Shown: positions 32,579 to 47,729 of the stretch, piece after piece
Layout: each line of letters opens with the position of its first letter
Numbering within the stretch: position 1 is the first letter of the stretch
NCBI GenBank assembly: GCA_947629935.1
Contig: CANRFQ010000004.1
Location: 5,403-69,402, forward strand
Direction of reading: 5' to 3'
Source of the DNA: an uncultured Bacilli bacterium
GTDB taxonomy: Bacteria > Bacillota_I > Bacilli_A > RF39 > UBA660
DNA: 64,000 nucleotides
Program-made: the position numbers and the translations under genes
Notes under the pieces: generated by a model
Databases searched by the model: none
The model's input: only the letters and a program-made list of their open reading frames with translations
What the model was told of the DNA's origin: nothing

Positions 32579-33472
32579 ATGATTTTAGTAATTTTATTAG
32601 TTATTACCGGTTTCATAATTGCTTATCGAATGAATGATGGTAAAAATGTATATCAATTTGTTACTAGAAGTGTTGCTTCTGCCTATAATAAATATGCGCC
32701 ATATAGTTTTAAAATGGTCAGGGAAAAAACAAAAGAATTAGGGCAAGAATATACAACTCGACAATACATTACCCAAGTTGCTATGTTTGCCATCGTCGCT
32801 GGTGGTATTGCTTATTTATATTTCTTTTCATTTATTTGGGCTTTAGTATATGCTTTTGTCGCTGTTATGTTTATTCCATATTTAGCATATCTAAGATGCC
32901 AAAGAGTTTATAGTGAATTTATCTTTGAACAAATTCAAACTTATACAACAAACGTTATTATGGAATTTAACACCACGCAAAGTTTTGTTAAATCTTTAGA
33001 AGGTGTTAGAGATTCGGGAGTTTTAGAAGATCCAATTCTAGGCGATGTTAAAAAGATGATTGAATTATCATATCAAAACGGAACTATTGATGAATCAATT
33101 AATTATTTTAATGAAAAATATCCATACTATATGGTCAAAAATATGCACCAATTATTTTTACAAATTACCAAAGAAGGTGCAATTGATTCGGGTGAAGCCT
33201 TAGAAAACATGGCAATGGATATTGATGCCTTGGTAGAAGGTGTTTATCGAGACAGAATGGATCGTAAACAATTCCATCGTAAATTCTTAACGTTTGGCTT
33301 AGCTTTATATTTCTTAGTATTAGCCATGATAATGCTTCTGGGTAAAGATAAATATATAGCCTTACTTGATTTATGGTATGTATCGTTAATATTACATGCA
33401 ATTATTTTAATAAATAGTTTCTTCCTTATGTCGGGCGAGAAATACTATAATGCTGATGTGGGGGTGGAATAA
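32579..33472 (+). CDS. TadB-like platform protein (T2SS-F domain)
   Basis: Topology is TM, then 2 TM, then a cytoplasmic helical domain of about 130 aa, then 2 TM. It lies immediately downstream of the ATPase, as in tad loci. Confidence 0.6.
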   Translation: MILVILLVITGFIIAYRMNDGKNVYQFVTRSVASAYNKYAPYSFKMVREKTKELGQEYTTRQYITQVAMFAIVAGGIAYLYFFSFIWALVYAFVAVMFIPYLAYLRCQRVYSEFIFEQIQTYTTNVIMEFNTTQSFVKSLEGVRDSGVLEDPILGDVKKMIELSYQNGTIDESINYFNEKYPYYMVKNMHQLFLQITKEGAIDSGEALENMAMDIDALVEGVYRDRMDRKQFHRKFLTFGLALYFLVLAMIMLLGKDKYIALLDLWYVSLILHAIILINSFFLMSGEKYYNADVGVE

Positions 33473-34260
33473 TGTACTTAGAAATTTTAGCTATGGGCGT
33501 TATTGTATTTTTTATAATGAATTATACTGGGCGTATAAATGCTAATAAATTTATTACTGATAACCAAGCATATTTTCAAAAATTAAAAGAGGATGATTGG
33601 GATTTCTATGTTCGTGCTAAATATGGAGAAAATGCTGATCCTAATGCGATGTTTAATAAAAGACTTCGCAATGGTCTTATTGGTATAGTAGCAGTATTAT
33701 TTTTCTTTATTAGTGAACTGAATTATATTTATATATTGGTAGCTTTATTTGCAGGAATTGCTTTGTTTAAACTAGATTATATTAATATAAAATCATTTTA
33801 TAAAAGGCATTTACATCAAATCGATATATTATTGCCCTATTATTTAAAGGGTTTAGAAATATTAATTCAACACTATACTGTTCCTGTTGCTTTAGCTAAA
33901 TCAATTGATGATGCGCCGGAAATATTTAAGTTAGGTTTAAAACAACTAGTTGAACAAATTAATGCTGGTGATTCTTCCATTGAACCATATATGCAATTTG
34001 CACGTGATTATCCCGTTCGTGATTCCATGAGGATGATGCGACTTTTATATCGTTTAAGTTTAGGTCGTCAAGAAAGAAAACAAGAGCAATTAGTAGCTTT
34101 TTCTAAAACTATATCAAATTTACAGTTAAAAGCTCGTGAAACTAAATATAAGGAACGTTTAGAAAAAATGGAAAGTAAAACTATGAGCATGTTAGTTTCA
34201 ACTGGTTTAGGAGTTATGATACTATTAGTTTTAGCTGTAATGATGATGATAAATGTATAA
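33472..34260 (+). CDS. TadC-like platform protein (T2SS-F domain)
   Basis: Same topology. The cytoplasmic segment LPYYLKGLEILIQHYTVPVALAKSIDDAP...INAGDSSIEPYMQFARDYP fits the T2SS-F repeat pattern. 1-nt overlap with the upstream gene. Confidence 0.6.
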   Translation: MYLEILAMGVIVFFIMNYTGRINANKFITDNQAYFQKLKEDDWDFYVRAKYGENADPNAMFNKRLRNGLIGIVAVLFFFISELNYIYILVALFAGIALFKLDYINIKSFYKRHLHQIDILLPYYLKGLEILIQHYTVPVALAKSIDDAPEIFKLGLKQLVEQINAGDSSIEPYMQFARDYPVRDSMRMMRLLYRLSLGRQERKQEQLVAFSKTISNLQLKARETKYKERLEKMESKTMSMLVSTGLGVMILLVLAVMMMINV

Positions 34261-34353
34261 AATTGGGTATTTGATACCTTTTTTTATTTAACTTTATATT
34301 TATTTAAGAAAAAAATTAGTGTATAATTTTTTTAGGTAGTGAGATGGTTAAAT

Positions 34354-36852
34354 ATGAAAAAAAATAAGAAGATTTTATTTTATTTTTTAAGTTTTTTAAT
34401 CCCTATAGCAATTTTTGGAATTATATGTTTTATAACAAAATTTTATCCTTTTGGAGAGAACCTTTTAAATAAATATGATTCTTATAAAATGTATCCATCC
34501 TTATTACTAGAATATATAAATAAATTTAGAAGTGGAAATTCATTATTATACACATTTCATGCGGCGTTAGGAACGAACTTTATCTCGTTGATTCATTTGT
34601 ACTTAGGAAGTCCGTTCAATTTACTGCTATTATTTTTTAAAAATGATCAAATATATCTTTTTTATTCCATTATTATTTTCTTAAAAATTGGCTTATCGAG
34701 TTTATGTTTATTTATATATTTTCAAAATAAAAATTCTAATAAGCTATTGGTGAATTTGGTTTTCAGTTGTATTTATGCCTTATCAGGTTTTTTAATAACA
34801 TATAACTATCACATAATGTGGAGTGATGCTTTTTATTTAACTCCTTTAGTATTGTTAGGTGTAGATAAATTAATAAGCAATAATAATCACATTTTATATC
34901 TTATTTTTTTAACGATTTCTATTATAATTAATTTTTATATTGGTTATATGATGTGCATATTTACTTTTATTTATTTCATATATCGTATTATTAATACTGA
35001 TTGTGATAAAAAAAAGATAATAATCGAATTTATTAAATATTCTTTAATAGCTGGACTAATATCATCGTTTGTTTTAATACCCAGCGCCATTGCAATCTTA
35101 AATGGTCGAACAATTTCAGAGTTTAGTCTTTTTTCAATAAACATAGCAAATTTAAAATCTTTATTTTACAATTTATTGCCGGCGTCTTTTATTATGACTG
35201 ATAATTATAACGAAGGTAGTTGTGTAATTTATTGTTCTATTTTTGTCGTTGTGTTAACAATATTTTACTTTTTTAATCAAAAATTTTCTAAAAAAGAAAA
35301 AATTACAGTTGGAGCCATTATTCTATTCTTTATTTTAAGTTTTATTTTAAGACCACTAGATTTGACATGGAATATGTTTGCTCAACCAGTATGGTGGAAT
35401 TCTAGATATGCCTTTTTGTTTAGTTTGTTTTTAATTATTATAGCTCATAAAACTTTTATAAATATAAATTATATAAAAATAAAACCTATTATTAAAAGTT
35501 TAATAATTATAATATTTATATTGTTATTTTTAACAAGTTTCACTTTAAAATTATATGGATCTGGCCAAAAAATCAAGACCTTTTACATCTTAGTAAGTTC
35601 TATAATATTATTTATATTATACATTTACTTATTAATAAAATTAAAAACCAAACGATTTATCATAATAATATTTGTGGTCGCCGAATTAACTTTTAATGCT
35701 TATTATTCCCTTAAAGTAGATAATGTTTTGAAAATTAGCGATACAAAAAAAGAAATGGAAAAAGTTAATAATAATTTAGATTTGATTAAAGATAATGACT
35801 TTTATCGCATTTATCAATATAACGATAAACAGTTTGACAGTGGATTATTTTATGGTTATAATTCAATAAATCTTTTTGCTTCTATATACAATAAAAAAAT
35901 AAATGATTTTTATGAAAATAAGCTTAATGGTGGAGCAAGTGTCAATCATACAGAATTACCTTTAACAAATATTGAAACATTATCTTTATTAAATGTTAAA
36001 TATATCTTATTTAATAATTTTAAAGATAATTTAAGTTGTTTAAATGAAAATGTTTGCATTAATAAATATAGTTTACCTTTGGGATTTCTAATTTCAAGTA
36101 AATCAACAATTAAATTAAAAAACAATGAACCATTAGATAATTTGAATAAAATATATTCTTATTTATTAAATGAAAATATTGATTTATATTATAAACCAGA
36201 CATCAATGTTAAGTTAAAAAATGTCAATGAGAAAAATAAGTATTTAATAATGCAGAAAGGAAAGAAAAAGGGCAAAATAACCTTAGAATTTATTTCGGAT
36301 TTTAATGGAGTTATTGCACCTAATAGAAATAATTTTTTCTATTTAGATGAGTGTTCTTATTATCTAAATGGCAAGAAAAGTGATAAAACTCTTTTTATGA
36401 ATGTAAAAAAAGGTGATAATATAAAAATTGTCTATAATTTTACTGGAGCAAGAGATGATGTAAAATTGCAAGATCTAGAGGTAAAAATATTAGATTTAAA
36501 CAAACTCCAAGAAATTTCTAATAAATTATCAACATATAAGCTTAACATAATAACAAATAACAAACATTTATTAACTGGTAGTATTGATAACAAACAAAAT
36601 CAAAAACTGTTTTTATCTATTCCATATGATAAAGGACTAATAATAAAAGTTGATGGTAAAAAAACACCATATAATATGGAATTTAACACCTTTATTTCTA
36701 TTAATGTACCAAAAGGAAAACACATAATAACCATAGATTATATTCCAATGGGAAGTAAATTAGGAATTATACTTTCTGAAACTACCTTTTTAGGTGTTTT
36801 AACATATGAAATGTGGAGGCTGATATGCAGAAAAAAGAAATATTATACATAG
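34354..36852 (+). CDS. YfhO family polytopic membrane protein (GT-C-type glycosyltransferase)
   Basis: About 13 TM segments followed by a large C-terminal extracytoplasmic domain. Size and N-terminal pattern (FYPFGEN...YDSYKMYPSLL) are typical of YfhO. Preceded by a weak hairpin/T-tract at 34266-34285 and a TATAAT at 34322-34327. Confidence 0.7.
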   Translation: MKKNKKILFYFLSFLIPIAIFGIICFITKFYPFGENLLNKYDSYKMYPSLLLEYINKFRSGNSLLYTFHAALGTNFISLIHLYLGSPFNLLLLFFKNDQIYLFYSIIIFLKIGLSSLCLFIYFQNKNSNKLLVNLVFSCIYALSGFLITYNYHIMWSDAFYLTPLVLLGVDKLISNNNHILYLIFLTISIIINFYIGYMMCIFTFIYFIYRIINTDCDKKKIIIEFIKYSLIAGLISSFVLIPSAIAILNGRTISEFSLFSINIANLKSLFYNLLPASFIMTDNYNEGSCVIYCSIFVVVLTIFYFFNQKFSKKEKITVGAIILFFILSFILRPLDLTWNMFAQPVWWNSRYAFLFSLFLIIIAHKTFININYIKIKPIIKSLIIIIFILLFLTSFTLKLYGSGQKIKTFYILVSSIILFILYIYLLIKLKTKRFIIIIFVVAELTFNAYYSLKVDNVLKISDTKKEMEKVNNNLDLIKDNDFYRIYQYNDKQFDSGLFYGYNSINLFASIYNKKINDFYENKLNGGASVNHTELPLTNIETLSLLNVKYILFNNFKDNLSCLNENVCINKYSLPLGFLISSKSTIKLKNNEPLDNLNKIYSYLLNENIDLYYKPDINVKLKNVNEKNKYLIMQKGKKKGKITLEFISDFNGVIAPNRNNFFYLDECSYYLNGKKSDKTLFMNVKKGDNIKIVYNFTGARDDVKLQDLEVKILDLNKLQEISNKLSTYKLNIITNNKHLLTGSIDNKQNQKLFLSIPYDKGLIIKVDGKKTPYNMEFNTFISINVPKGKHIITIDYIPMGSKLGIILSETTFLGVLTYEMWRLICRKKKYYT

Positions 36853-37781
36853 TTATCCCTTGTTATAATGAAGAAGAAGTAATAAGAGAAACTAGTAAAA
36901 GATTAATTAAAAAAATCAACCACCTTATTGATGCTAATTTAATTAGCTTAAAAAGTAAAGTAATGTTTGTTGATGATGGCTCGCAAGATAATACTTGGAA
37001 TTTAATTACCAGCATTCACAAAGAAAACGAATTATTCACAGGTATATTGTTGTCTCGAAATAGAGGACATCAGAATGCTTTATTAGCGGGGCTTATGGTG
37101 GCCAAAAAAGATGCTGATATAGTTATTAGTATGGATGCTGATTTACAAGATGATATAAATACTATTGATGAAATGTTAAAAGATTACTATGCTGGAAACG
37201 AAATAGTTTATGGCGTGAGAAAAAATCGAAATAAAGATAGCTTTTTTAAAAAAACATCTGCGCATTTTTTTTACAAATTTATGAAAAAATTAGGAGTAGA
37301 TATAATTTATAACCATGCTGATTATAGATTAACTAGTAAAAAAGTTTTAGATGAATTAGAAAATTTTAATGAAGTAAACTTATTTTTAAGAGGAATATTT
37401 CCATTAATAGGTTTTAAGCATTCAATCGTATATTACGAAAGAAAAAAAAGATATGCAGGTAAATCAAAATATCCTTTCAAAAAAATGCTCAATTTTGCTT
37501 TTGATGGAATAACTTCTTTTAGTATCAAACCAATTCGTTTAGTTTTAAATCTTGGTCTAATTATGCTAATTATTAGCCTAATAATGTTAATCTATAGTTT
37601 AGTAGTAAAATTTACAGGTCATACAGTAGATGGATGGGCTTTTATAGTTTGCTCGATATGGATAGTTGCAGGCATTCAAACATTAGCTATAGGTTTAATT
37701 GGAGAATATATTGGTAAAATTTACAATGAAACTAAACGTAGACCAAGATATATTATTGAAAAAAATTTAAGTGAAAAGTAA
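36825..37781 (+). CDS. GT2 polyprenol-phosphate glycosyltransferase (CsbB/GtrB-like)
   Basis: VIPCYNEEE, FVDDGSQD, DADLQD (DxD) and two C-terminal TM helices. GGAGG RBS before ATG 36825. Overlaps the yfhO-like gene. Confidence 0.85.
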   Translation: MQKKEILYIVIPCYNEEEVIRETSKRLIKKINHLIDANLISLKSKVMFVDDGSQDNTWNLITSIHKENELFTGILLSRNRGHQNALLAGLMVAKKDADIVISMDADLQDDINTIDEMLKDYYAGNEIVYGVRKNRNKDSFFKKTSAHFFYKFMKKLGVDIIYNHADYRLTSKKVLDELENFNEVNLFLRGIFPLIGFKHSIVYYERKKRYAGKSKYPFKKMLNFAFDGITSFSIKPIRLVLNLGLIMLIISLIMLIYSLVVKFTGHTVDGWAFIVCSIWIVAGIQTLAIGLIGEYIGKIYNETKRRPRYIIEKNLSEK

Positions 37782-37813: not shown

Positions 37814-38041
37814 TTGAAATTTTATAAAATAAATAATGAATTAAATATGACAGTTATAACAGTAGTAGCAATAGCAGCGGTAGCGGCTATATTCTACGCC
37901 TTTGTATGGCCAAGAGTAAAAGAATCAATTTCCGAGAACGTAAATAATACTACTCAGGGAAATACATCAGCAGCAACATCAGCAGATTGCTCACGTATTG
38001 GTGGTACTTGGAACAATAATACTAATCGATGTGATTTATAA
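37814..38041 (+). CDS. Flp-like pilin paralogue lacking leader, RBS and promoter (possible silent cassette or pseudogene)
   Basis: From ELNMTVITVVAIAAVA onward the N-terminus is DNA-identical to the next pilin gene, but the MKEATG leader is replaced by unrelated sequence. The TTG start lies inside the terminator T-tract, and no RBS is present. Confidence 0.4.
   Translation: MKFYKINNELNMTVITVVAIAAVAAIFYAFVWPRVKESISENVNNTTQGNTSAATSADCSRIGGTWNNNTNRCDL
37837..37886. repeat. Direct repeat copy 1 (49-50 nt perfect identity with 38216-38265)
   Basis: GAATTAAATATGACAGTTATAACAGTAGTAGCAATAGCAGCGGTAGCGG is present identically at both sites. Weaker similarity continues for about 25 nt (to TTTGTATGGCCA). 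Confidence 0.9.
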
Positions 38042-38042
38042 G

Positions 38043-38104
38043 CCGCTATAGCTGCTATTGATAGTAAAGTAGTGGCAATTTGCTACTACTGTTATTTCTG
38101 TCAT
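38043..38104. repeat. Inverted partial copy of the pilin N-terminal coding segment
   Basis: The reverse complement reads ATGACAGAAATAACAGTAGTAGCA...CAATAGCAGCTATAGCGG. That gives 15/15, 16/18 and 7/9 matches to 37847-37886, interrupted by a 20-nt insert. The local hairpin AGTAGTGGCA/TGCTACTACT lies at 38068-38090. Confidence 0.8.
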
Positions 38105-38134
38105 GTAAAGCTGCAAAAAAAAATTGAAATTATA

Positions 38135-38163
38135 TTGATAATTAAACAAAAAAAAGTTATAAT
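38135..38163 (+). promoter_or_regulatory. Consensus sigma-A promoter TTGATA-17-TATAAT for the major pilin gene
   Basis: TTGATA at 38135-38140, a 17-nt spacer, and TATAAT at 38158-38163. Followed by RBS AGAAGGAG and ATG 38199. Confidence 0.6.
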
Positions 38164-38198
38164 ATTAATGTATTATAGAGAAGGAGTGAATGTAATTT

Positions 38199-38474
38199 AT
38201 GAAAGAAGCAACTGGTGAATTAAATATGACAGTTATAACAGTAGTAGCAATAGCAGCGGTAGCGGGTATTTTTTACGTGTTTGTATGGCCAGCTATACAA
38301 GATAATTTACAAGCAAGAACTGCTTGCTCTCAAGGACCAAATACAAAAAATGATATAGGATCTGGTAGTCAAGGATATATTTCATGTAATGCAGCAAGTG
38401 GTGGTTCTTATACATGTACATATACTAATGCTAAAGGAACCAATAAAACAACTACATGTACACAAAATTTATAG
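38199..38474 (+). CDS. Flp-like pilin (probable major pilin), 4 Cys, Ser/Thr-rich C-terminus
   Basis: MKEATG leader followed by the hydrophobic helix ELNMTVITVVAIAAVAGIFYVFVW, then a small Cys- and Thr-rich globular part. It has its own strong promoter and RBS. Confidence 0.65.
   Translation: MKEATGELNMTVITVVAIAAVAGIFYVFVWPAIQDNLQARTACSQGPNTKNDIGSGSQGYISCNAASGGSYTCTYTNAKGTNKTTTCTQNL
38216..38265. repeat. Direct repeat copy 2 (see 37837-37886)
   Basis: Perfect 49-50 nt identity, read directly from the sequence. Confidence 0.9.
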
Positions 38475-38519
38475 TTAATTTAAATTTTTAATAATATTAA
38501 CATAAGGAGAAAATAAGAT

Positions 38520-38756
38520 ATGAGAGAAGCGACAGGAGAGCTAAATATGTCTGTAATAGTAATAACTCTAGTAGCAATCCTAGTAGCTTTTTTCTATGGA
38601 GTAATATGGCCGATGATTGATAAGAGTCAAGAAGCGCAAATGAATTGTAGTAAAGCAGTTTGTGAAAAATCTGCTGATTCTGATGGTTATGTCAATTGTA
38701 CATATTCTAAAAAGGATGGAACAACTTCTAATATTCAATGTAAATATAAGGGATAA
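38520..38756 (+). CDS. Flp-like pilin paralogue, 4 Cys
   Basis: MREATG leader followed by ELNMSVIVITLVAILVAFFYGVIW. AAGGAG RBS. Confidence 0.6.
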   Translation: MREATGELNMSVIVITLVAILVAFFYGVIWPMIDKSQEAQMNCSKAVCEKSADSDGYVNCTYSKKDGTTSNIQCKYKG

Positions 38757-38766
38757 AGGTGGTTAA

Positions 38767-39273
38767 ATGAGAGAGTCGATAGGTAGTGCAGGCTTATTTC
38801 AAATTGTAATGGTGTTATTGCTTCTTTTTACGGCTTACTTTTGTTTGTCAATAAATTATACGGCAGCTTATAAAGTAACAGATTCTATAAATAATCAAAT
38901 AAAAAAAGATGATGGAATTAACCCAAAGGAAATAGCTAATGTTTTAAAAGAAGCACACTATACATCTTCTGGACTTTGTAACAAGTGTAACGCTGCTGGA
39001 GAGTGTGAAGAAGGATGGACACCTTTCCTTTTAACTGGAGACAGTCCAATGAATGTAAATGACCAAGCTAATTATTGTATAAAAAAAATAAAATCTACTT
39101 CTTCAAGTAAAGATTTACCTGAGTTATATTACTACAAAATAAAAGTATTTTATAATATAGAAGTTCCAATTATTAATCAATTTAATTTTAATATTCAAGT
39201 TAATTCTTCAAATATCTATACGCCGAATGAAACAGACCCAGATTATGTTAAACTTACGGCTTATAATGAATGA
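38767..39273 (+). CDS. TadE-like pseudopilin, 4 Cys
   Basis: MRESIG leader followed by the hydrophobic helix SAGLFQIVMVLLLLFTAYF. Size and position after the flp-like genes match tadE/tadF. Confidence 0.5.
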   Translation: MRESIGSAGLFQIVMVLLLLFTAYFCLSINYTAAYKVTDSINNQIKKDDGINPKEIANVLKEAHYTSSGLCNKCNAAGECEEGWTPFLLTGDSPMNVNDQANYCIKKIKSTSSSKDLPELYYYKIKVFYNIEVPIINQFNFNIQVNSSNIYTPNETDPDYVKLTAYNE

Positions 39274-39282
39274 GGTGAAGTT

Positions 39283-39795
39283 ATGAGAGAATCGATAGGT
39301 GGAGCATGGTTTATTGGTTTAATAATAACTTTCATGATGGTTTTTGTTGGTTATTTAACTGTCATGATTAATTATTCTAATTCATTTAAAATTAAAAATG
39401 AAGTTGTTCATATAATTGAAAAGTATGAGGGTCTAACTGAAAGGAATGGCGGCTCTGTTCAAATCATTAATCAGTATTTAGCAAATACTGGATATAATAG
39501 TAGAGGCAAATGCCCTTGTTCTTCAGAAGATAATAATGCTTGCTATGGAGCAAGTAATATATTTGATAATCATCATAATTTAGAAAACGTTCAAAAAGAT
39601 AAAACATATTATTATTGTGTTCAATTTGAAAAAAGTGGGAAAAGTGAAGATGAAACAGGATATTATGATATTCAATTGTTTTTAAAGTTTGATTTACCAG
39701 TTTTGGGCCAATTAGGTAATTTTACAATTAAAGGACAAACTATAAAGATAAAACATCCAGTAAATTATGGAGGGGCACACCCTGGTAAAGAATAG
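39283..39795 (+). CDS. TadE-like pseudopilin, 4 Cys
   Basis: MRESIGG leader followed by AWFIGLIITFMMVFVGYL. Paralogous architecture to 38767-39273. Confidence 0.5.
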   Translation: MRESIGGAWFIGLIITFMMVFVGYLTVMINYSNSFKIKNEVVHIIEKYEGLTERNGGSVQIINQYLANTGYNSRGKCPCSSEDNNACYGASNIFDNHHNLENVQKDKTYYYCVQFEKSGKSEDETGYYDIQLFLKFDLPVLGQLGNFTIKGQTIKIKHPVNYGGAHPGKE

Positions 39796-39818: not shown

Positions 39819-40847
39819 ATGAATGTAATTGTATCAAATAAGTTTCAAACACAATTAAATGCTTTACAAATAGATGTAATTAAAAGTGTTAATGGTGAGT
39901 TTACACCAGATGAAATAACAGAAATGTTTGCTAATTTCTTTTATAATAAAATGATATTAGATGTTACGGCAATTAAAGGATATCAAAGTGTATCTAATAT
40001 TCAGCAACTTGCTATGGGTATTGATATGAGTAAAGTTATTTTAGTTTTAGATGATAGTGATGTTACTAGTTCACAAAGCTATTTATCGCAACTTATATCA
40101 ATGGGGATTTATAATTTTACTAGAAATATTGATAATATTCCTTTCTTAATTGATAATCCGAATACCTATAAAGATGTCGCCCAATATCAACAAATTAGTA
40201 CCGTAGCTAATGAAATTAGCAAAAAGCATGAGACTGCTAAATTTGATTATGAAGAGGATGTAACTAGTGGAGGGTTTACAACTATTATAGGAATTAAAAA
40301 TGTTACGGATCATGCTGGCTCTACAACTTTAATTTATATGTTAAAAAAACAATTACAAAATAATTATAATGTTTTAGCAATTGAAATAGATAAAAATGAT
40401 TTTCAATATTTTAATGACAAAGATTTAGTAAGTGTTACAGCTGATAAATATGAAGCAACAATTCGTAATGCTAATACATACGATATTATTTTAGTCGATT
40501 TAAATAATAGTACTAATGAAGATAGTTGTTCAGATGTCTTATATTTACTAGAGCCTAGTACGATAAAGTTAAATAAGATGATTCGCCGAAATAGAGGAAT
40601 TTTTGATAATTTAAAGGGTAAGAAGATTGTTTTAAATAAAAGTTTATTAGATAACAAAGACGTAATGGATTTTGAATATGAATCAAGAAGTCAAGTTTTT
40701 TATAATATTCCTCCGCTAGATGATAAAAAAGATAAACATCGTGCACTTGACGATTTAATGTCAAGGTTAGGTTTTCTTAGACAGAAACAAAACAATTTAG
40801 GTGGAGAAAAGACTAAGATTCTAGGTATTTTCAAAAATAAGTCTTGA
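39819..40847 (+). CDS. TadZ/CpaE-like protein: receiver-like N-domain + MinD/ParA-fold domain with degenerate P-loop
   Basis: IIGIKNVTDHAGSTTLIYMLKKQL sits in place of KGGxGKTT. YDIILVDLN (Walker B-like), EPSTIKLNKM and KIVLNKS follow the MinD/ParA order. The N-terminal 130 aa are receiver-like. Confidence 0.5.
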   Translation: MNVIVSNKFQTQLNALQIDVIKSVNGEFTPDEITEMFANFFYNKMILDVTAIKGYQSVSNIQQLAMGIDMSKVILVLDDSDVTSSQSYLSQLISMGIYNFTRNIDNIPFLIDNPNTYKDVAQYQQISTVANEISKKHETAKFDYEEDVTSGGFTTIIGIKNVTDHAGSTTLIYMLKKQLQNNYNVLAIEIDKNDFQYFNDKDLVSVTADKYEATIRNANTYDIILVDLNNSTNEDSCSDVLYLLEPSTIKLNKMIRRNRGIFDNLKGKKIVLNKSLLDNKDVMDFEYESRSQVFYNIPPLDDKKDKHRALDDLMSRLGFLRQKQNNLGGEKTKILGIFKNKS

Positions 40848-40898: not shown

Positions 40899-41234
40899 AT
40901 GTTATTAATGGATTTTGAAAACTTTTGTGCAGATTCAACCACTATTTGGTCTGTTGTTGGTTGGCTTTTAACAATATTTAAAATTGTTATTCCTATTATC
41001 TTAATTGTTATGGGTAGTATTGATTTTGGTAGAGCCGTTGTAGCTCAAAAAGATGATGAAATTAAAAAATCAAGTAAGTCATTAGCTATGCGTGCAGCAG
41101 CGGCAGTAATTATATTTATTTTACCATCTGTTATTATGATGGTTATTAACTGGGCTATGGATGTGTCTGGTACTGATATGGATTATGAAACTTGTACTGA
41201 TTGTGTTATTCACCCAAGTGAATGTGGAAAATAG
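40899..41234 (+). CDS. VirB2/TrbC-like pilin-like conjugal transfer protein
   Basis: 111 aa with two hydrophobic helices (IWSVVGWLLTIFKIVIPIILIVMG and AAAAVIIFILPSVIMMVINWAM) joined by the basic loop QKDDEIKKSSKSLAMR, plus a Cys-containing tail. Confidence 0.5.
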   Translation: MLLMDFENFCADSTTIWSVVGWLLTIFKIVIPIILIVMGSIDFGRAVVAQKDDEIKKSSKSLAMRAAAAVIIFILPSVIMMVINWAMDVSGTDMDYETCTDCVIHPSECGK

Positions 41235-41253
41235 AAATTTTTCTATTTTTTTT
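41231..41253 (+). terminator. Rho-independent terminator between the Tad-side and T4SS-side units
   Basis: Stem ATAGAA/TTCTAT with a 4-nt loop followed by 7 T. It overlaps the stop codon. Confidence 0.5.
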
Positions 41254-41417
41254 AATATAAGAAGCTAATTTTAAAATTGTTAAACCAAAGAGTTATCATG
41301 AAAAATTAAGAAATGCCGTAAAGAAAAGGATTAAAACCAATTCATTATTCCTTCTGGGTGTTTTTTTTTACAAAAATTGTAATTTCCCTTAAAAAACTAT
41401 GATAAAACGTAAATTTA

Positions 41418-41426
41418 TGATATAAT
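41418..41426 (+). promoter_or_regulatory. Extended -10 promoter element (TGaTATAAT) upstream of the T4SS unit
   Basis: TG at 41418-41419 and TATAAT at 41421-41426. RBS AGGTGA and GTG 41450 lie downstream. The -35 is weak. Confidence 0.35.
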
Positions 41427-41449
41427 TTTAAAGTAGGTTAGGTGATACT

Positions 41450-42478
41450 GTGAAAAAAGTTATAATCTTATTTCTTTTAATTAGCATAAGTTTTCTAAGT
41501 TTTACAACATCAGTATCTGCTGAACCAAAAATTTGTTATTATAGTAGCAAAGAAAAAACGGGTGGCTATTATGAATACGCTGAATTAACTATTTATGATT
41601 CTTCTAATTCTATTGCTAGAGTAAAATTTGAAGATTTGCAAGCTCCAAAATTAGATTGTAATGTAGCAGCAGATATTTTAGAGGCTGGTGGTGCAGCAAT
41701 TGGTGGTTTGGCAGGGGTTGCTTTTTGTGGTGGTGCTGGTGGACTTATTTGTGCGCCAGTATTTGGAGCAGGTCTTGCTTCTTTGGGTAGAGCTATTGGT
41801 GGTGGTAAAACGTGTGCTTTTAAAGCTAATGGTATAACAATAAATGATCTTGAAGATCGTTCTGCAGCTGCTAGTAAATTTCTTAACACCAAATTGCAAT
41901 ATTTTGACGCTAATAAAAATCAACCAATTGTGAGTTTACCTAACATTGATTTAGGTCCTGAATGTCCAAAATATTTAGGTGTAGTTATTAGTGATATTTC
42001 TGATGCCAATAACGTTCAGGTTTATGCTGGTGATAGTAGTACGAAAGATTTTATTGATAGTTATATAAAATCTAACCCTGATTATAATTATGTAATATGG
42101 GGTACAGAATTTGAAAGAACTGGCGAACCAGGGGATGGCAGTAATTTGGGAAATACTACTTCCCAAGATGATTCTGATCTGAATACTTGTAGAGGCCTTT
42201 TAGGAAATAAGGTAAATGGTGAGTATCAAAACGGAACAGTAGGAGCTTTACTTCAACAAATATTTGATTATATGAAAATGGCAGCAGTAATATTAGTATT
42301 TGCTTTTTCGGTAATAGATTATGCGAAAGCTATAGCTGCTCAAAATCAAGATGCTTTTAAAAAAGCTAACATTAATTTTATGAAAAGAATAATATTTGGA
42401 ATTGTATTTTTCTTAATACCAACTTTAATTAATGTAATTTTAAGTGTAATAGATAGTTCTACTTGCGGAATTCAATAA
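41450..42478 (+). CDS. Secreted protein with Gly/Ala-rich glycine-zipper segment fused to a C-terminal VirB2/TrbC-like two-helix domain
   Basis: Signal peptide. GGAAIGGLAGVAFCGGAGGLICAPVFGAGLASLGRAIGGG lies at about 41666-41816. The C-terminus VIDYAKAIAAQNQDAFKK...FFLIPTLINVILSVI aligns with IDFGRAVVAQKDDEIKK...IFILPSVIMMVINWA of the 40899 product. Confidence 0.55.
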   Translation: MKKVIILFLLISISFLSFTTSVSAEPKICYYSSKEKTGGYYEYAELTIYDSSNSIARVKFEDLQAPKLDCNVAADILEAGGAAIGGLAGVAFCGGAGGLICAPVFGAGLASLGRAIGGGKTCAFKANGITINDLEDRSAAASKFLNTKLQYFDANKNQPIVSLPNIDLGPECPKYLGVVISDISDANNVQVYAGDSSTKDFIDSYIKSNPDYNYVIWGTEFERTGEPGDGSNLGNTTSQDDSDLNTCRGLLGNKVNGEYQNGTVGALLQQIFDYMKMAAVILVFAFSVIDYAKAIAAQNQDAFKKANINFMKRIIFGIVFFLIPTLINVILSVIDSSTCGIQ

Positions 42479-42497
42479 GATAGTAGGTGAAATAAAT

Positions 42498-45077
42498 ATG
42501 TTTGATGCTGGAAAAATTTGGGATGTAATATATGGTTTTTTTGTTACTATTGATACAGTAATTTATAAATTTGTTGGGTGGCTTTATGAATTATATATGT
42601 TAATTAGCAGCGCTCGGATTTTTCGAACTGAAACTTTTGAAATATTTATAAATCGTATCTATATAATTCTAGGGGTTATAATGTTATTTTTCTTAGCATA
42701 TACAATTTTAAAAAATATTGCTGATCCCGACTCTTTTGCAAAAGGCGATAGCTCGATGGGAAAAATCATTTCTAATACAGTTATCTCTTTAGTGCTTATT
42801 GCTATATTGCCTACTATTTTTACTTTTTTATATCAAGCTCAAGAAATTTTGCTAGAAGAAAATATTATTGGTAAAATAATATTAGGTAATTATTCTTATT
42901 CAACGGATACTTTGGAACTTAATTTGGGAGCTGAGGTATGTGAACATTTAAACACAATCAAAGGGCCACACGAGTATGTAATTAATAGTGATGGTAGTTG
43001 CTATGTTAAATGGCATTCGACTGGCGATGCAGCTTCGATTGCTTTGGCAGGAAATTCAATTGCAGTCGATGTTTTTACCTCATTTTTCTATCCCTATTTA
43101 ACTGAAGAAGAATATACAGACAAAGTAACTGAAGCTCGTTTGGAAGCAGAAACATTAAATCAAAATCCTGATGATTTTACCAATAGTAATCAAAATTATA
43201 ATGTTGATTTTAGTTATGAAGAATGGGGAAATGATGCTTTTAGTGCCAAAAGCCAATATGTATATAATAAAATAGCTAGTTATAATTCATGTCATAATAT
43301 GAGTGATGGCTATGCTTATGGTTCTACAGCAGAGGCTTGTGCTCGCGAAATTAAAAACTACAATGATAAAAATAATATAATATCTCCTTTAAATTTTAAA
43401 TCAGTTATGCAATATGCAAAAACAACCGGTGATTTTAGTGGCTTTAAGTTTTTATCAGAATTTATATATGAAGATAGAATTGAATATTCTATAATTATAT
43501 CGACTATAGCTGGTTTATTTGTTTGTTATATAATGATTTCTTATTGTATAGACATGGGCTTAAGAGCAGCTAAATTAGGCTTTGCTCAACTTGTTGCTCC
43601 TGTTCCAATTTTAGCGCGTATTGTTCCTAGTCAAAAGAAAATGTTTGATAGTTGGACTAAATTTACACTACAATCATATTTTGAAGTATTCATTAGAATT
43701 GCGATTATATTCTTAGGTATTTTTATGATTACCCATTTACCGAACGTTCAAGATATGTGGAAAGATTCAATACTAACTAAAATTTCCTTCATGTCCATTA
43801 AAACACCATTAATAATGGATATAACATCTGTGTCATGGGGTACTAAAGCTATAGCCCGCGTCGCCGTAATTATCGGTATCTTGATGTTTGTTAAACAAGC
43901 CCCTAAATTAATTTCTGATGCTTTAGGTATCAGTATCAATACTGGCTCATTAAATATCCGTAATAAATTAAAAAATATGGTTGGTGGCGAACATGTAGTA
44001 AGAGGTTTAAATGCAATTGGTTCCCTACCTGCTAAAGGCTTTGGAGCTGTACGAGGAGCCTTAGGTGGAATGTGGGCTGCCCAAATGCAAGGAGACGGAA
44101 GTGGAAAACTTACTAAAGCTGCTGCTTTAAGAGGTCTTCAAAGTGGATGGAAAAATCATAAGGGAAGCTTTAGAAACACCTATCAATCTGTTTCTAGCGA
44201 TGTAACGGGTGACCATAAATATGCCCATTCCTATTTTGGTGGCAACACTATGGCTGGTAATATAAATCGTAATATAGATACGGCATACAAAGCAAGTTCT
44301 CAAACAGCTTTAGAAAAACATCTTAAAGATATTGGAGAATATATTAAAAAACATGATGATCCAAATAATAATGCAGAACTAAATGCTAGATTACAGAGAG
44401 CACAAGCTGCTTATAATGAAGCAATTAGAAATGTTGAAAATAATCCAGCATTTACGCGAGCAATTAATAATAGAGCTCAACAATTGCGTAATGAATATGA
44501 CGCCAATGAAGGAAAAGCTGCAAAAGAACGTATGAAAGCTTTTGAAAATAGTGCAGAATATAATAATTTAAAGGCTATTGCTCGAGCTAATGCTCGTAAT
44601 GACATTCGCCAAGAAGCAGCAAGCAATAATGAGATATTATCTGCTGCTGAAGAACAGAAACGTATTGATCAAAGATTGGCAGATTACATTTTGGATGGTA
44701 TTAAAACTAATAGTTCTGAGTTGGCTCGTCAATATAAAAATGACCATTTAACTGAAAGAACGATTGATAAAGAACTAGAAAAACGTGCAAATAAAGAAGT
44801 TGTTGATCAATTAAAAGCAACAAATGAAAATTATAAAATTGCTAAAGAAGCAGTTGATGATAATGGAAATTATACAGCAGAGACTTTTGCAAATGTACTT
44901 AATGAATATAGAAGGGATGTTCAATCTAATCCTAAGACATCTGAAGATCGAGCATATATTAAAGCTCTTGCTGAAGAAAAAGCTAATGGTGATTATAAAT
45001 CTAATAAAGAATTACAAGATTTCTTTACAAAAATGGTGGAAGACAAGAAAATATCATTTGGAAAAGGCGATAAATAG
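42498..45077 (+). CDS. VirB6/TrbL-like polytopic T4SS channel protein with long coiled-coil C-terminal domain
   Basis: At least 6 TM segments in the first 500 aa or so. It sits between the VirB2-like and VirB3/VirB4-like genes. The C-terminal 270 aa or so are Ala/Asn/Glu/Lys-rich and helical. Confidence 0.6.
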   Translation: MFDAGKIWDVIYGFFVTIDTVIYKFVGWLYELYMLISSARIFRTETFEIFINRIYIILGVIMLFFLAYTILKNIADPDSFAKGDSSMGKIISNTVISLVLIAILPTIFTFLYQAQEILLEENIIGKIILGNYSYSTDTLELNLGAEVCEHLNTIKGPHEYVINSDGSCYVKWHSTGDAASIALAGNSIAVDVFTSFFYPYLTEEEYTDKVTEARLEAETLNQNPDDFTNSNQNYNVDFSYEEWGNDAFSAKSQYVYNKIASYNSCHNMSDGYAYGSTAEACAREIKNYNDKNNIISPLNFKSVMQYAKTTGDFSGFKFLSEFIYEDRIEYSIIISTIAGLFVCYIMISYCIDMGLRAAKLGFAQLVAPVPILARIVPSQKKMFDSWTKFTLQSYFEVFIRIAIIFLGIFMITHLPNVQDMWKDSILTKISFMSIKTPLIMDITSVSWGTKAIARVAVIIGILMFVKQAPKLISDALGISINTGSLNIRNKLKNMVGGEHVVRGLNAIGSLPAKGFGAVRGALGGMWAAQMQGDGSGKLTKAAALRGLQSGWKNHKGSFRNTYQSVSSDVTGDHKYAHSYFGGNTMAGNINRNIDTAYKASSQTALEKHLKDIGEYIKKHDDPNNNAELNARLQRAQAAYNEAIRNVENNPAFTRAINNRAQQLRNEYDANEGKAAKERMKAFENSAEYNNLKAIARANARNDIRQEAASNNEILSAAEEQKRIDQRLADYILDGIKTNSSELARQYKNDHLTERTIDKELEKRANKEVVDQLKATNENYKIAKEAVDDNGNYTAETFANVLNEYRRDVQSNPKTSEDRAYIKALAEEKANGDYKSNKELQDFFTKMVEDKKISFGKGDK

Positions 45078-45088
45078 GAGGAATAAAA

Positions 45089-45397
45089 ATGGAAAATTAT
45101 TTAATCCCGGCTAATTCAAAAAAGTCAAAATTAATTTTAGGATTCTTTAATCCCATTGACTTAATAATTTTTTTGATAGGCGTGGTAATAACACTAGTAT
45201 TATTATTTGTGATTAGAACTAATAATATTTTTCTAGTCATATTAATATTACTCCCGGCTTTAATTTCTGCATTCTTAGTAATGCCGGTTCCTAATTATCA
45301 TAATATGTTAACGTTATTAAATAACATATATAGCTATTTTAGTAAAAGAAAAAAGTATTATTGGAGAGGTTGGTGTGCTAATGGCAAAAAACGCTAG
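45089..45397 (+). CDS. PrgI/VirB3-like small T4SS membrane protein
   Basis: 102 aa. The N-terminus IPANSKKSKLILGFFNPIDLIIF is followed by two TM helices. It lies immediately upstream of, and overlaps, the VirB4 gene, as in Firmicute conjugation modules. Confidence 0.6.
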   Translation: MENYLIPANSKKSKLILGFFNPIDLIIFLIGVVITLVLLFVIRTNNIFLVILILLPALISAFLVMPVPNYHNMLTLLNNIYSYFSKRKKYYWRGWCANGKKR

Positions 45398-45938
45398 TAT
45401 ATCGAAATATTCTGAGGATTGGGTTCCTATTAAAAGCATCATGAATGGAATGATTGAATTAGAAAATGGCAATTATGTAACCGGAGTAAAAATAGAATCA
45501 AAAGATATTTTTATCCTTGATGCGCAAGCTCAAAATAACGTAATTTATGGAATGCGTAATTTCTATAATGCAATTGACTATGAATTTTGGTTAGTAATCG
45601 CCGATAGACCTGTAGATATTAATATCTATCTATCGCAGTTACAAGTTTTGTATTCTCATACTCCTAATCCAGAAATTAGAAAATTAATTGATCAAGATAT
45701 TAATAAAGCAAATTTATTTATGAGTAGTGAAATGAGTGTCGTAGATACTGAATATTACATTTTGTTTAAAGAAAAAAAACAAGAAATAATTCAGAAACGA
45801 ATTCACAATTTAATTACCAACTTAGCTAATGCAGGAGTAAATTCTGCTCAAGCATCTAATTCAGATTTACGCATGCTTTTAGATAATTTCTTAAATGGGG
45901 GAACAACAACTAATTTTGGGACGGTGATTAGTTCATGA
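45375..45938 (+). CDS. VirB4-like ATPase, N-terminal domain encoded as a separate ORF
   Basis: EDWVPIKSIMNGMIELENGNYVTGVKIESKDIFILD fits the N-terminal domain pattern of Gram-positive VirB4 (TcpF/ConE/Orf16 type). It ends in an ATGA overlap with the next ORF. Confidence 0.65.
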   Translation: MLMAKNASISKYSEDWVPIKSIMNGMIELENGNYVTGVKIESKDIFILDAQAQNNVIYGMRNFYNAIDYEFWLVIADRPVDINIYLSQLQVLYSHTPNPEIRKLIDQDINKANLFMSSEMSVVDTEYYILFKEKKQEIIQKRIHNLITNLANAGVNSAQASNSDLRMLLDNFLNGGTTTNFGTVISS

Positions 45939-47719: not shown

Positions 47720-47729
47720 TAGTTAGAAG

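What the first reader, a model, noticed from the sequence alone, without database searches (positions are those of the whole stretch)
37814..39795. Pilin/pseudopilin family with an ultra-short conserved leader M-[KR]-E-[AS]-x-G, no +5 Glu, and no prepilin peptidase in the window
Seen:
- Five proteins start almost identically: MKEATG-ELNMTVITVV (38199), MREATG-ELNMSVIVIT (38520), MRESIG-SAGLFQIVMV (38767), MRESIGG-AWFIGLII (39283) and MKESYWG-YWLILLGI (29731). Each leader is followed by about 20 hydrophobic residues and a small Cys-containing domain (2-4 Cys each).
- In the pilins, Glu sits at +1 after the Gly, not at +5. The pseudopilin-like proteins have no Glu at all in the helix.
- No A24-type (TadV/PilD) polytopic aspartic peptidase gene is present in the 64 kb. 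The only intramembrane protease is the CPBP/Abi gene at 23252-24007, two genes upstream of the locus on the opposite strand.

Established: Flp/TadE/TadF prepilins are cleaved after Gly in G/xxxxEY-type motifs, usually with longer leaders.

Inference: either a divergent class III signal peptide is processed by a peptidase encoded elsewhere, or this is a new processing logic. The CPBP protease is a speculative candidate.
Basis: partly seen in the sequence, partly recalled or inferred. Interest (0 to 1): 0.7.

Follow-up and report, generated by a model that had tools for sequence, protein, structure and literature searches.

The report
Short-leader pilins of a Tad-like machine
Five small membrane-anchored proteins with the same six-residue start (Met-Lys/Arg-Glu-Ala/Ser-x-Gly) are most likely the building blocks of a pilus made by a neighbouring Tad-like machine that is fused to a DNA-transfer (type IV secretion) system in uncultured gut bacteria; the enzyme that would trim them is not encoded nearby, which is common for such pili.

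Summary
The motif M-[KR]-E-[AS]-x(1-2)-G occurs five times in all six frames of the window. Each occurrence is at the start of a gene in one locus. It is translated, under purifying selection, and conserved in about 160 related loci from uncultured low-GC gut Bacilli (RF39-like).

- **Context:** CpaB/RcpC-like protein, TadA/VirB11-type ATPase, two TadB/TadC-like membrane proteins and a possible TadZ. Directly downstream lies a Gram-positive type IV secretion system (T4SS: VirB3/4/6, VirD4, NlpC/P60).
- **Fold:** two AlphaFold models show the pilin lollipop architecture. No Pfam, NCBIfam or PDB family claims these proteins, apart from DUF5411 for one of them.
- **Peptidase:** no A24 peptidase was found in the window or in 162 related loci. 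However, three sister loci, one of them inside the operon, encode large proteins with canonical prepilin signals (G|FTLIE, PF07963). This implies a prepilin peptidase elsewhere in those genomes.
- **CPBP protease:** it is syntenic only in the window's own lineage (44 of 81 sources versus 0 of 80 loci), so it is an unlikely processing enzyme.

Best reading: major and minor pilins of a Tad-like filament carrying a minimal, ComGC-length class III signal. Cleavage is inferred, not shown. This is a new variant of a known kind, of moderate interest.

The parts
29731..30138 (+). DUF5411 protein (135 aa), leader MKESYWG; minor-pilin-like or membrane-anchored assembly factor, first gene of the core operon
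   Evidence: Pfam PF17424, 201.8 bits. AlphaFold model pLDDT 80.6: helix 2-48 plus three strands. 611 representative clusters, with the domain nearly always at residue 1. Gly7 is replaceable by A/M/I/S/T.
30150..31016 (+). CpaB/RcpC-like protein
   Evidence: TIGR03177 E=2e-8 and PF16976 E=2e-5, both below their cut-offs. 84 bits to the annotated CpaB of a B. cereus plasmid.
31033..32562 (+). TadA/CpaF/VirB11-type secretion ATPase
   Evidence: PF00437 T2SSE, 95 bits. 145 bits to the pLS20-family 'VirB11-like ATPase' and 117 bits to the B. cereus CpaF/VirB11 protein.
32579..33472 (+). TadB-like polytopic platform protein
   Evidence: No Pfam or PDB hit. 30 bits to the B. cereus plasmid TadB-position protein, which itself weakly hits T2SSF. 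13.7 bits to an annotated B. badius T2SSF protein.
33472..34260 (+). TadC-like polytopic platform protein
   Evidence: No Pfam or PDB hit. 13.7 bits to an annotated B. badius T2SSF-family protein (PF00482, 24.6 bits).
34339..36852 (+). YfhO-family GT-C glycosyltransferase, inserted between the platform and pilin genes (accessory)
   Evidence: PF09586, 487 bits. The same insertion next to pilin genes is seen in 5/31 and 7/58 related loci.
36813..37781 (+). GT2 glycosyltransferase (accessory partner of YfhO)
   Evidence: PF00535, 91 bits.
37814..38041 (+). Leaderless third pilin paralogue. Homology to the 38199 gene starts at ELNM (37838). The first 49 nt are identical by eye, and the C-terminal domain is different.
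   Evidence: Sequence. It is the only leaderless copy among 116 pilin cores. A terminator-like hairpin follows at 38068-38090.
38135..38163 (+). Promoter-like site (TTGATA-17-TATAAT) ahead of the major pilin gene
   Evidence: 11 of 12 consensus matches. The total number of promoter-like sites in the region is not above the shuffle expectation.
38199..38474 (+). Pilin 1 (91 aa): MKEATG-ELNMTVITVV..., four Cys
   Evidence: Family of 2098 unnamed homologues. E3 and G6 are invariant.
38520..38756 (+). Pilin 2 (78 aa): MREATG-ELNMSVIVIT..., four Cys
   Evidence: 21 bits to a 55-aa protein (MGEHKG...) in the B. badius pLS20-like conjugation operon.
38767..39273 (+). Pseudopilin-like protein 1 (168 aa), MRESIG leader
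   Evidence: Paralogue of the 39283 protein in related loci.
39283..39795 (+). Pseudopilin-like protein 2 (170 aa), MRESIGG leader
   Evidence: AlphaFold model pLDDT 88.8: helix 5-47, helix 58-68 and a five-strand sheet. 59 homologues, none named. No PDB match with E below 0.1.
39819..40847 (+). 342-aa protein, a possible TadZ analogue; assigned by position and by eye only
   Evidence: No Pfam or NCBIfam hit. Conserved after the pseudopilin genes in both lineages.
40899..52048 (+). Contiguous Gram-positive T4SS: a VirB2-like two-TM protein, a VirB6-like protein, VirB3/VirB4 split into three ORFs, an NlpC/P60 hydrolase, a lipoprotein and the VirD4 coupling protein
   Evidence: NF045975 (Mycoplasma ICE VirB4), 347 bits, with the two preceding ORFs covering its N-terminus; NF045889. 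PF02534, 172 bits; PF00877.
24012..24461 (-). Membrane-anchored thioredoxin (CSHC), a likely disulfide-forming helper for the Cys-containing pilins and surface proteins
   Evidence: PF00085; TIGR01295 PedC/BrcD E=1e-12. It co-varies with DUF5411-type content: 22/22 versus 0/26 loci.
23252..24007 (-). CPBP/Rce1-like intramembrane protease. A neighbour that was considered as the processing enzyme and judged unlikely.
   Evidence: PF02517, 56.6 bits; MroQ-like, 50 bits, below cut-off. A CPBP-motif ORF is present in 44 of 81 set-1 sources and in 0 of 80 set-2 loci.

Best explanation
The five proteins, plus a leaderless sixth copy, are the subunits of a Tad-like (type IV filament superfamily) pilus.

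**Parts**
- Two or three major pilins: 38199, 38520 and the truncated 37814.
- Two minor pilins or pseudopilins: 38767 and 39283.
- A DUF5411 protein (29731) that is either a third minor pilin or a membrane-anchored assembly factor.

**How it works**
- The subunits insert into the membrane by their N-terminal helix.
- They are extracted and polymerised by the adjacent CpaB-like / TadA-type ATPase / TadB-TadC-like machine.
- That machine is genetically fused to a Gram-positive type IV secretion system, so the filament probably serves contact or adhesion for that system. This step is inference.
- M-[KR]-E-[AS]-x-G is a minimal class III-type signal of ComGC/T4a length.
- It is most likely cut after the invariant Gly6 by an A24-type prepilin peptidase encoded elsewhere in the genome. 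The pilins would then start with Glu at +1. This step is also inference.

**Shown:** the motif, its conservation, the gene context and the predicted architecture. **Not shown:** cleavage, the peptidase and filament formation.
For: - **Motif:** it is unique to this locus, is translated, and is under purifying selection. E3 and G6 are invariant across two lineages and a Bacillus plasmid homologue. In the pseudopilins position 6 is mostly G, with some A or S. By established knowledge this matches the -1 preference of prepilin peptidases.
- **Machine:** T2SSE ATPase. CpaB-like protein. TadB/C-like proteins linked to T2SSF through Bacillus plasmid intermediates. The whole block is conserved in about 160 loci.
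- **Fold:** AlphaFold models show a long N-terminal helix plus a beta-sheet. Ten of 34 pilins give sub-threshold hits to archaeal Pilin_N.
- **Canonical prepilins nearby:** large proteins with PF07963 above threshold occur in or beside the sister systems of L102 and L157. In L102 the gene lies between the two pseudopilin genes.
- **A related locus with a peptidase candidate:** a B. cereus plasmid Tad-like locus has Gly-terminated pilin leaders and a divergent TadV-like gene.
Against: - No A24 peptidase was found in the window or in 162 related loci of 10-20 kb each.
- No canonical prepilin was seen in the window's own lineage.
- There is no hit to the Flp, TadE or N_methyl models, and no Foldseek match in the PDB with E below 0.1.
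- Gly7 of DUF5411 is often replaced by A, M, I, S or T, so that protein may not be cleaved.
- M-K-E itself is strongly conserved, which could mean the N-terminus is retained.
- pLS20-family relatives have small N-anchored proteins without a Gly, and no plasmid-borne peptidase is described for them.
- TadZ and the platform assignments rest on weak or transitive similarity.
Confidence: 0.6

Rival explanations
1. The proteins are subunits or accessory parts of the same Tad-like/T4SS machine but are never cleaved. The conserved MKE[AS] tail stays on the cytoplasmic face as a recognition handle for the ATPase or platform. Assembly would then be independent of any prepilin peptidase.
For: - No A24 gene in the window or in 162 loci.
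- The first three or four residues are as conserved as the Gly.
- DUF5411 tolerates non-Gly residues at position 7.
- The homologous pLS20-family module (gene 36 resembles DUF5411; the 'VirB11' is the best ATPase match) has N-anchored small proteins without a Gly, and its describers report no peptidase and no pili.
Against: - Gly6 is invariant in the pilins, and position 6 is mostly G, with some A or S, in the pseudopilins.
- Canonical cleavable prepilins sit in sister operons.
- By established knowledge, every characterised type IV filament requires leader removal.
Confidence: 0.25
2. A non-A24 protease removes the leader. The reader's candidate is the neighbouring CPBP/Rce1-like glutamic intramembrane protease (23252-24007).
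For: - The CPBP gene is syntenic with the locus in 48 of 80 loci of the window's lineage.
- Its best family match is MroQ. By recall from the literature, MroQ trims a peptide precursor.
Against: - No CPBP-motif ORF occurs in any of the 80 loci of the second lineage, which keeps the whole system and the motif.
- In the window's lineage CPBP also flanks 26 variant loci that lack DUF5411, the first gene of the MKE-type block.
- CPBP is much less conserved than the machine genes: 27-66% versus 55-86% identity.
- It lies on the opposite strand, next to a metallophosphoesterase.
Confidence: 0.05
3. They are not filament subunits. They are simple N-anchored bitopic membrane or wall-associated proteins of the Gram-positive T4SS (channel, scaffold or surface components), and the shared N-terminus reflects common descent and translation-initiation preferences.
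For: - No pilin family model or solved pilin structure matches them.
- The T4SS genes are contiguous.
- The pLS20 literature treats the homologous ATPase as VirB11 and states that Gram-positive elements make no conjugative pili.
- The B. cereus DUF5411-like protein has a lipobox-like N-terminus, noted by eye.
Against: - The CpaB-like protein, the two T2SSF-related proteins and the gene order (small pilin genes, then two larger ones) follow Tad logic.
- Canonical prepilins are inserted among these genes in sister operons.
- One variant locus (L157) keeps the machine and an MKE-type pilin without any T4SS genes. The 26 type-2 loci keep the machine with neither.
Confidence: 0.1

Closest known systems
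Tad/Flp (type IVc) pilus systems (CpaB/RcpC, TadA/CpaF, TadB, TadC, TadZ, Flp, TadE/TadF, TadV)
   Same: - CpaB-like protein, TadA-type ATPase and two half-size platform-like proteins.
- One to three very small major pilins followed by two larger pseudopilin-like genes.
- A possible TadZ.
- The peptidase gene can lie outside the locus.
   Different: - The leader is 6 residues long, against the usually longer Flp leaders.
- There is no G/xxxxEY, and Glu sits at +1.
- The pilins carry a small four-Cys C-terminal domain.
- There is no match to the Flp or TadE models.
- The host is a monoderm, so there is no secretin.
- The locus is fused to a T4SS.
pLS20-family conjugation operon module (genes 36-41: small N-anchored protein, 'VirB11', two membrane proteins, DUF4320, 47-aa protein) and the B. 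badius pPM400 relative
   Same: - Best ATPase match (145 and 137 bits).
- DUF5411 resembles the gene 36 product (18 bits).
- Pilin 2 resembles the 55-aa protein MGEHKG... (21 bits).
- Same T4SS partners: VirB4, VirD4, VirB6-like and NlpC/P60.
   Different: - Plasmid-borne, with a relaxase.
- No CpaB-like gene was annotated or detected in the stretches examined.
- The small pLS20 proteins lack the Gly.
- The module has not been described as a pilus.
B. cereus-group plasmid Tad-like locus (NZ_CP120959.1)
   Same: - CpaB, an AAA/TadZ-type ATPase, CpaF/VirB11 and TadB/C-position proteins.
- Three tandem small pilins whose leaders end in Gly and have no Glu at +5.
- A DUF5411-like protein.
   Different: - The leader is 21 residues long.
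- The locus has its own divergent TadV-like gene (A24 hit only E=0.8, plus catalytic-type motifs seen by eye).
- No T4SS is attached.
Com pseudopilus prepilins (ComGC) and T4a pilins
   Same: - Leader of 5-6 residues ending in Gly. By recall, B. subtilis ComGC starts MNEKG|FTLVE, so a Glu in the leader is not unusual.
- In the second lineage the helix reads ...IAAIAIP..., as in T4a pilins (the comparison is by eye).
   Different: - No Phe at +1 and no Glu at +5.
- No N_methyl model hit.
- A different machine: Tad-type rather than ComGA/GB.
Archaeal type IV pilins (Pilin_N, PF07790)
   Same: - Short leader, small residue at -1, and no requirement for Glu at +5.
- Ten of 34 family members give sub-threshold hits.
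   Different: All hits are below the Pfam threshold (best E=0.0044). The host is bacterial and no archaeal-type peptidase was identified.

Membership tests
Type IV filament pilins (class III signal-peptide substrates) | Short charged leader ending in Gly (or Ala/Ser) directly before a hydrophobic helix of about 20 residues | tested here: met
   MKEATG, MREATG, MRESIG and MRESIGG are each followed by a hydrophobic stretch of about 20 residues. G6 is invariant in the pilins, and position 6 is mostly G, with some A or S, in the pseudopilins.
Type IV filament pilins (class III signal-peptide substrates) | Glu at +5 of the mature protein (bacterial T4P, Com, T2SS and Flp) | tested here: not met
   No Glu occurs in residues 8-35 of any of the five proteins. 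The pilins have Glu at +1.
Type IV filament pilins (class III signal-peptide substrates) | Match to a prepilin N-terminal model (N_methyl PF07963 / TIGR02532) | tested here: not met
   No hit at E up to 1 for the window proteins. By contrast, large proteins in the sister loci L102 and L157 do pass the threshold.
Type IV filament pilins (class III signal-peptide substrates) | Leader removed by an A24 prepilin peptidase | not testable with these tools
   No A24 gene was found in the 64 kb window or in 162 related loci (and the Pfam scans). The rest of each genome could not be searched.
Type IV filament pilins (class III signal-peptide substrates) | Encoded with a PilB/TadA-family ATPase and a GspF/PilC/TadB-C platform protein | tested here: met
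   ATPase: PF00437, 95 bits. The platform proteins are reached only through Bacillus plasmid intermediates that touch T2SSF. The direct Pfam and PDB profile searches were negative.
Type IV filament pilins (class III signal-peptide substrates) | Lollipop fold: N-terminal helix of about 50 residues packed on a beta-sheet | tested here: inconclusive
   The AlphaFold models have this architecture (pLDDT 88.8 and 80.6). Foldseek finds no PDB pilin; the best E-value is 0.15.
Flp/Fap pilin (PF04964) | G/xxxxEY processing motif and a match to the model | tested here: not met
   No hit at E up to 1. The sequence after Gly is ELNMTV.
TadE/TadF pseudopilins (PF07811) | Match to the TadE N-terminal model | tested here: not met
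   No hit at E up to 1 for the 38767 or 39283 proteins.
DUF5411 (PF17424) | Full-length match above the gathering score | tested here: met
   The 29731-30138 protein scores 201.8 bits over 1-133 of 134 positions. None of the other four proteins matches.
CPBP/Rce1-like protease as a dedicated component of this system | Co-occurrence with the system across lineages | tested here: not met
   A CPBP-motif ORF is present in 44 of 81 set-1 sources and in 0 of 80 set-2 loci. It also flanks 26 loci that lack DUF5411, the first gene of the MKE-type block.

The most novel reading that the evidence does not exclude
These reduced-genome gut Bacilli build a type IV-filament-like pilus without any A24 prepilin peptidase. 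Either the MKE[AS]xG N-terminus is retained, which would be a peptidase-independent assembly route shared with the unrecognised Tad-like module of pLS20-type Gram-positive conjugation systems, or it is removed by a protease of another class.
Probability: 0.15. Interest if true: 0.8.

Novelty: new variant of a known kind. Interest (0 to 1): 0.5.

Why it matters
- **An unnamed family.** At least 2098 pilin-like clusters, 59 pseudopilin-like clusters and 611 DUF5411 representative clusters carry no name in public databases. Gene callers can even clip the leader.
- **A recognition rule.** Reading them as pilins of a Tad-like machine gives a simple rule (M-x-E-x-x-G followed by a helix) for finding these filaments in uncultured gut Bacilli.
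- **A link to conjugation.** These proteins connect to the 'VirB11 plus two membrane proteins' module found on 284 Bacillus, Listeria and Enterococcus plasmid records. The pLS20 literature states that Gram-positive elements make no conjugative pili.
- **If cleavage turns out to be absent or non-A24,** this would break the rule that every type IV filament needs a prepilin peptidase.

Tried and rejected
- **Family scans.** Pfam and NCBIfam scans of the five proteins at E up to 1 gave only DUF5411.
- **Fold search.** Foldseek of two confident models against the PDB gave nothing below E=0.15. The top hits were levivirus coat proteins and NTF2-like folds, judged meaningless.
- **Platform proteins.** Profile searches of the TadB/TadC-like alignments against PDB sequences, and hhalign of one against the other, gave nothing.
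- **A24 search.**
  - The first regex (GxGDxK) was too strict. It would have missed the B. cereus TadV-like motif SPGDTK.
  - The search was repeated with looser regexes and with phmmer on 7069 stop-to-stop ORFs. It was still negative.
- **CPBP as processing enzyme.** Rejected on co-occurrence.
- **Calls that failed.**
  - The search for related loci with a too-diverse DUF5411 alignment failed.
  - Accession AB615352, which I recalled as pLS20, is not in the plasmid collection.
- **Literature.** Searches for RF39 pili, DUF5411 and pLS20 pili found no description of this leader or system. The one exception is a note that DUF5411 accompanies predicted CpaF/PilC operons in Clostridia.
- **Whole-genome A24 search.** A search of the host MAGs for A24 genes was not possible with the tools available.
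Full report
**1.
- M[KR]E[AS]x(1-2)G occurs exactly five times in the six-frame translation of the 64 kb window. Each occurrence is at the start of an ORF of this locus.
- The leader is translated.
  - In 59 pilin genes from related loci, codons 2-9 carry many synonymous variants while the peptide stays MKEATGELN.
  - In the 40 of those genes whose upstream sequence was printed, a Shine-Dalgarno-like purine-rich element lies a few bases before the ATG.
  - A public gene call for the window's own pilin (P0060, 82 aa) starts at Met10 and misses the leader.
  - The DUF5411 protein has no Cys, and the 38767 protein has five.
  - The range also contains a sixth paralogue, 37814-38041. Its homology to the 38199 gene begins exactly at ELNM and it has no leader. 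It is the only such copy among 116 pilin cores examined.

**2. Host and distribution.**
- The window is about 29% G+C.
- It is chromosomal. LepA, RpsD, EzrA and DnaB/DnaI-like genes flank the locus, and no relaxase or integrase is present.
- The ATPase has relatives in at least 257 species-level genomes of uncultured gut Bacilli, for example 'Ca. Coprovivens', 'Mycoplasma sp. CAG:956' and 'Firmicutes bacterium CAG:582'. I read these as the RF39 group from the names only.
- A second, more distant lineage was reached through DUF5411 ('Ca. Faecisoma', 'Acholeplasma sp. CAG:878'). There DUF5411 is about 45% identical and the ATPase 60-73% identical.
- Both lineages keep one block:
  - a surface protein, DUF5411, a CpaB-like protein, the ATPase and two polytopic proteins;
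  - one to three pilins, two pseudopilin-like proteins and a 330-340-aa protein;
  - a VirB2-like protein, a VirB6-like protein and a split VirB3/VirB4.
- Leaders in the second lineage:
  - pilins: MKEA[AS]GEAN;
  - pseudopilins: M[RK][EQD][SAG][IL][GAS];
  - DUF5411: M[KR]ES[FY]W[GAMS].
- E3 and G6 are invariant in a 34-sequence pilin alignment that includes a Bacillus plasmid homologue.

**3. What the machine is.**
- The ATPase is a T2SSE-family protein. It scores comparably against the VirB11, TrbB, TadA and FlaI models.
- The protein before it is CpaB/RcpC-like. Its model hits are below threshold, but it scores 84 bits to an annotated CpaB on a B. cereus plasmid.
- The two polytopic proteins give no direct Pfam or PDB-profile hit.
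  - The first matches the TadB-position protein of the B. cereus locus (30 bits).
  - Both match annotated T2SSF-family proteins of a B. badius plasmid (13.7 bits each).
  - Those plasmid proteins sit at the T2SSF gathering score.
  - I therefore accept them as platform proteins by transitive homology.
- The downstream genes form a Gram-positive T4SS. It is closest to the Mycoplasma ICE type: VirB4 model, 347 bits, split over three ORFs. VirD4 and an NlpC/P60 hydrolase complete it.

**4. Are the five proteins pilins?**
- *Sequence models:* there is no hit to Flp, TadE or N_methyl. Only the 29731 protein belongs to a named family, DUF5411.
- *Pseudopilin model (39283):* pLDDT 88.8; helix 5-47, a short helix and a five-strand sheet.
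- *DUF5411 model:* pLDDT 80.6; helix 2-48, a helix at 65-79 and three strands.
- Both models have the lollipop architecture of type IV pilins. Neither finds a significant PDB neighbour.
- Ten of 34 pilin-family members give sub-threshold hits to the archaeal Pilin_N model.
- Membership in a defined pilin family is therefore not established. The 'works like a pilin' reading rests on context, architecture and the signal-like N-terminus.

**5. The peptidase question.**
- No Peptidase_A24 hit occurs in any ORF of at least 90 aa in the window.
- No A24-type motif or phmmer hit occurs in 7069 stop-to-stop ORFs of the window plus 162 related loci.
- The phmmer query was a divergent TadV-like protein from the B. 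cereus locus. Pfam barely recognises it (E=0.8), so a divergent enzyme could still escape detection.
- By established knowledge, absence from the locus is not unusual for Tad systems.
- The most informative result points the other way.
  - In L102, a 521-aa protein starting MDMFKKG|FTLIELLAV... scores 27.9 bits on PF07963 (cut-off 21.2). Its gene lies between the two pseudopilin genes.
  - In L157, two large proteins with G|FTL[IV]E flank the machine and score 23.8 and 21.5 bits.
  - L116 has a weaker one.
  - Such signals are, by established knowledge, substrates of PilD/ComC-type peptidases. Those genomes should therefore encode one elsewhere, and the machine evidently accepts canonical prepilins.
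- No such protein was seen in the window's own lineage, so the inference is by homology.

**6. The CPBP idea.**
- The CPBP gene and a metallophosphoesterase sit upstream in 48 of 80 loci of the window's lineage.
- They also flank 26 variant loci. These have two CpaB genes, the ATPase and the two platform-like proteins, and they lack DUF5411. The one read in full (L024) continues with very large proteins that carry a different N-terminus.
- No CPBP-motif ORF occurs in any of the 80 loci of the second lineage.
- This is conserved chromosomal neighbourhood, not system membership.
- The adjacent membrane-anchored thioredoxin behaves differently. It is present in 22 of 22 loci with DUF5411-type content and in 0 of 26 without it. 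That fits a role in forming the disulfides of the Cys-containing pilins and surface proteins.

**7. Relatives in annotated records.**
- The ATPase's best matches among plasmids are as follows:
  - the 'VirB11-like ATPase' of a pLS20-family plasmid (145 bits);
  - a pLS20-like operon on B. badius pPM400 (137 bits);
  - the B. cereus Tad-like locus (117 bits).
- The pLS20-type module has the same order:
  - a small N-anchored protein (gene 36, which weakly matches DUF5411);
  - the ATPase and two membrane proteins;
  - DUF4320;
  - tiny one-helix proteins.
- In pPM400 a 55-aa protein, MGEHKGAITLSLVVIV..., matches the window's second pilin (21 bits).
- This ATPase type occurs on 284 plasmid records of Bacillus, Listeria, Enterococcus and others.
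- The pLS20 family paper calls the ATPase VirB11, leaves the neighbouring genes unknown, and states that Gram-positive elements make no conjugative pili.
- One paper notes DUF5411 next to CpaF and PilC in predicted secretion operons of Clostridia.
- I found no description of the leader or of the RF39-type system.

**8. Mechanism and confidence.**
- Best reading (0.6): these are major and minor subunits of a Tad-like filament.
  - They carry a minimal class III signal. By recall, its length and composition resemble ComGC's MNEKG.
  - They are cut after Gly6 by a peptidase encoded elsewhere.
  - The filament probably serves the attached T4SS.
- Rivals:
  - same machine but no cleavage (0.25);
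  - a non-A24 protease such as CPBP (0.05);
  - not filament subunits at all (0.1).
- Cleavage, the enzyme and the filament itself remain untested.

**9. Verdict.**
- This is a real, strongly conserved and unannotated pilin-like family with a non-canonical short signal, inside a composite Tad-like/T4SS locus.
- The missing peptidase is probably only missing from the neighbourhood.
- Classification: new variant of a known kind. Interest: moderate.

Noticed in passing
window 24525-52048; L001-L162: The Tad-like genes and a relaxase-less Gram-positive T4SS (VirB3/4/6, VirD4, NlpC/P60) form one chromosomal block. It is conserved in two lineages of uncultured low-GC gut Bacilli. This recalls the co-opted, relaxase-less T4SS reported for Patescibacteria (PMC12102498). 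Its function is unknown.
   Followed up: partly
L102:13765-15330; L157:6128-7621 and 14706-17417; L116:6493-7449: Large proteins (318-903 aa) with canonical prepilin signals (G|FTLIE, PF07963) sit inside or beside the sister operons. They look like modular adhesin-pilins.
   Followed up: partly
window 34339-37781; L052, L060, L074, L075, L088, L092, L095, L098, L141, L142, L148: A YfhO-family GT-C glycosyltransferase, with a GT2 partner in the window, is repeatedly inserted directly next to the pilin genes in both lineages. This suggests pilin glycosylation by a YfhO-type enzyme. From memory, this family is known for teichoic-acid glycosylation.
   Followed up: partly
window 24012-24461 (-): A membrane-anchored thioredoxin (CSHC, PedC/BrcD-like) co-varies perfectly with DUF5411-type locus content: 22/22 versus 0/26 loci. 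It is a likely disulfide-forming helper for the Cys-rich pilins and surface proteins.
   Followed up: yes
L011-L017, L019, L022-L024, L026-L029 and others (e.g. L024:8363-20209): These variant loci keep two CpaB genes, the ATPase and the TadB/TadC-like genes but lack DUF5411. In L024, the one read in full, there are no MKE-type pilins and no T4SS genes. Very large proteins follow instead, starting MKKKSMLIVAILLMSIGFAAVSTTLIINGNA. This may be a different substrate class for the same machine.
   Followed up: no
window 37814-38041, 38068-38090, 38135-38163: A leaderless pilin copy shares its first 49 nt (by eye) with the 38199 gene but has a different C-terminal domain. A terminator-like hairpin and a near-consensus promoter follow it. 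It could be a decaying duplicate or a recombination cassette, and it is unique among 116 copies.
   Followed up: partly
window 38199-38474 (P0060): The public gene call for this pilin starts at the internal Met10 and drops the conserved leader. This annotation pitfall applies to the family.
   Followed up: yes
L164:19534-20079 (B. cereus plasmid NZ_CP120959.1): A 'hypothetical protein' of 181 aa in a plasmid Tad-like locus looks like a divergent TadV prepilin peptidase. It has the motifs FTDLKYRK and SPGDTKM, but its Pfam A24 hit is only E=0.8.
   Followed up: partly
L165:4383-8440 (pLS20-family plasmid OK210094.1); L163:4702-14405: The 'VirB11 plus unknown membrane proteins' part of pLS20-type conjugation operons has the layout of a Tad-like pilus module: a DUF5411-like protein, the ATPase, two T2SSF-like proteins, DUF4320 and tiny one-helix proteins. 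The literature states that such elements make no pili.
   Followed up: partly
window 16859-18187 and 4169-5023 (-): A thioester-domain (TED) surface protein and a sortase lie upstream of the locus. pLS20 uses a thioester adhesin (Tie) for mating.
   Followed up: no
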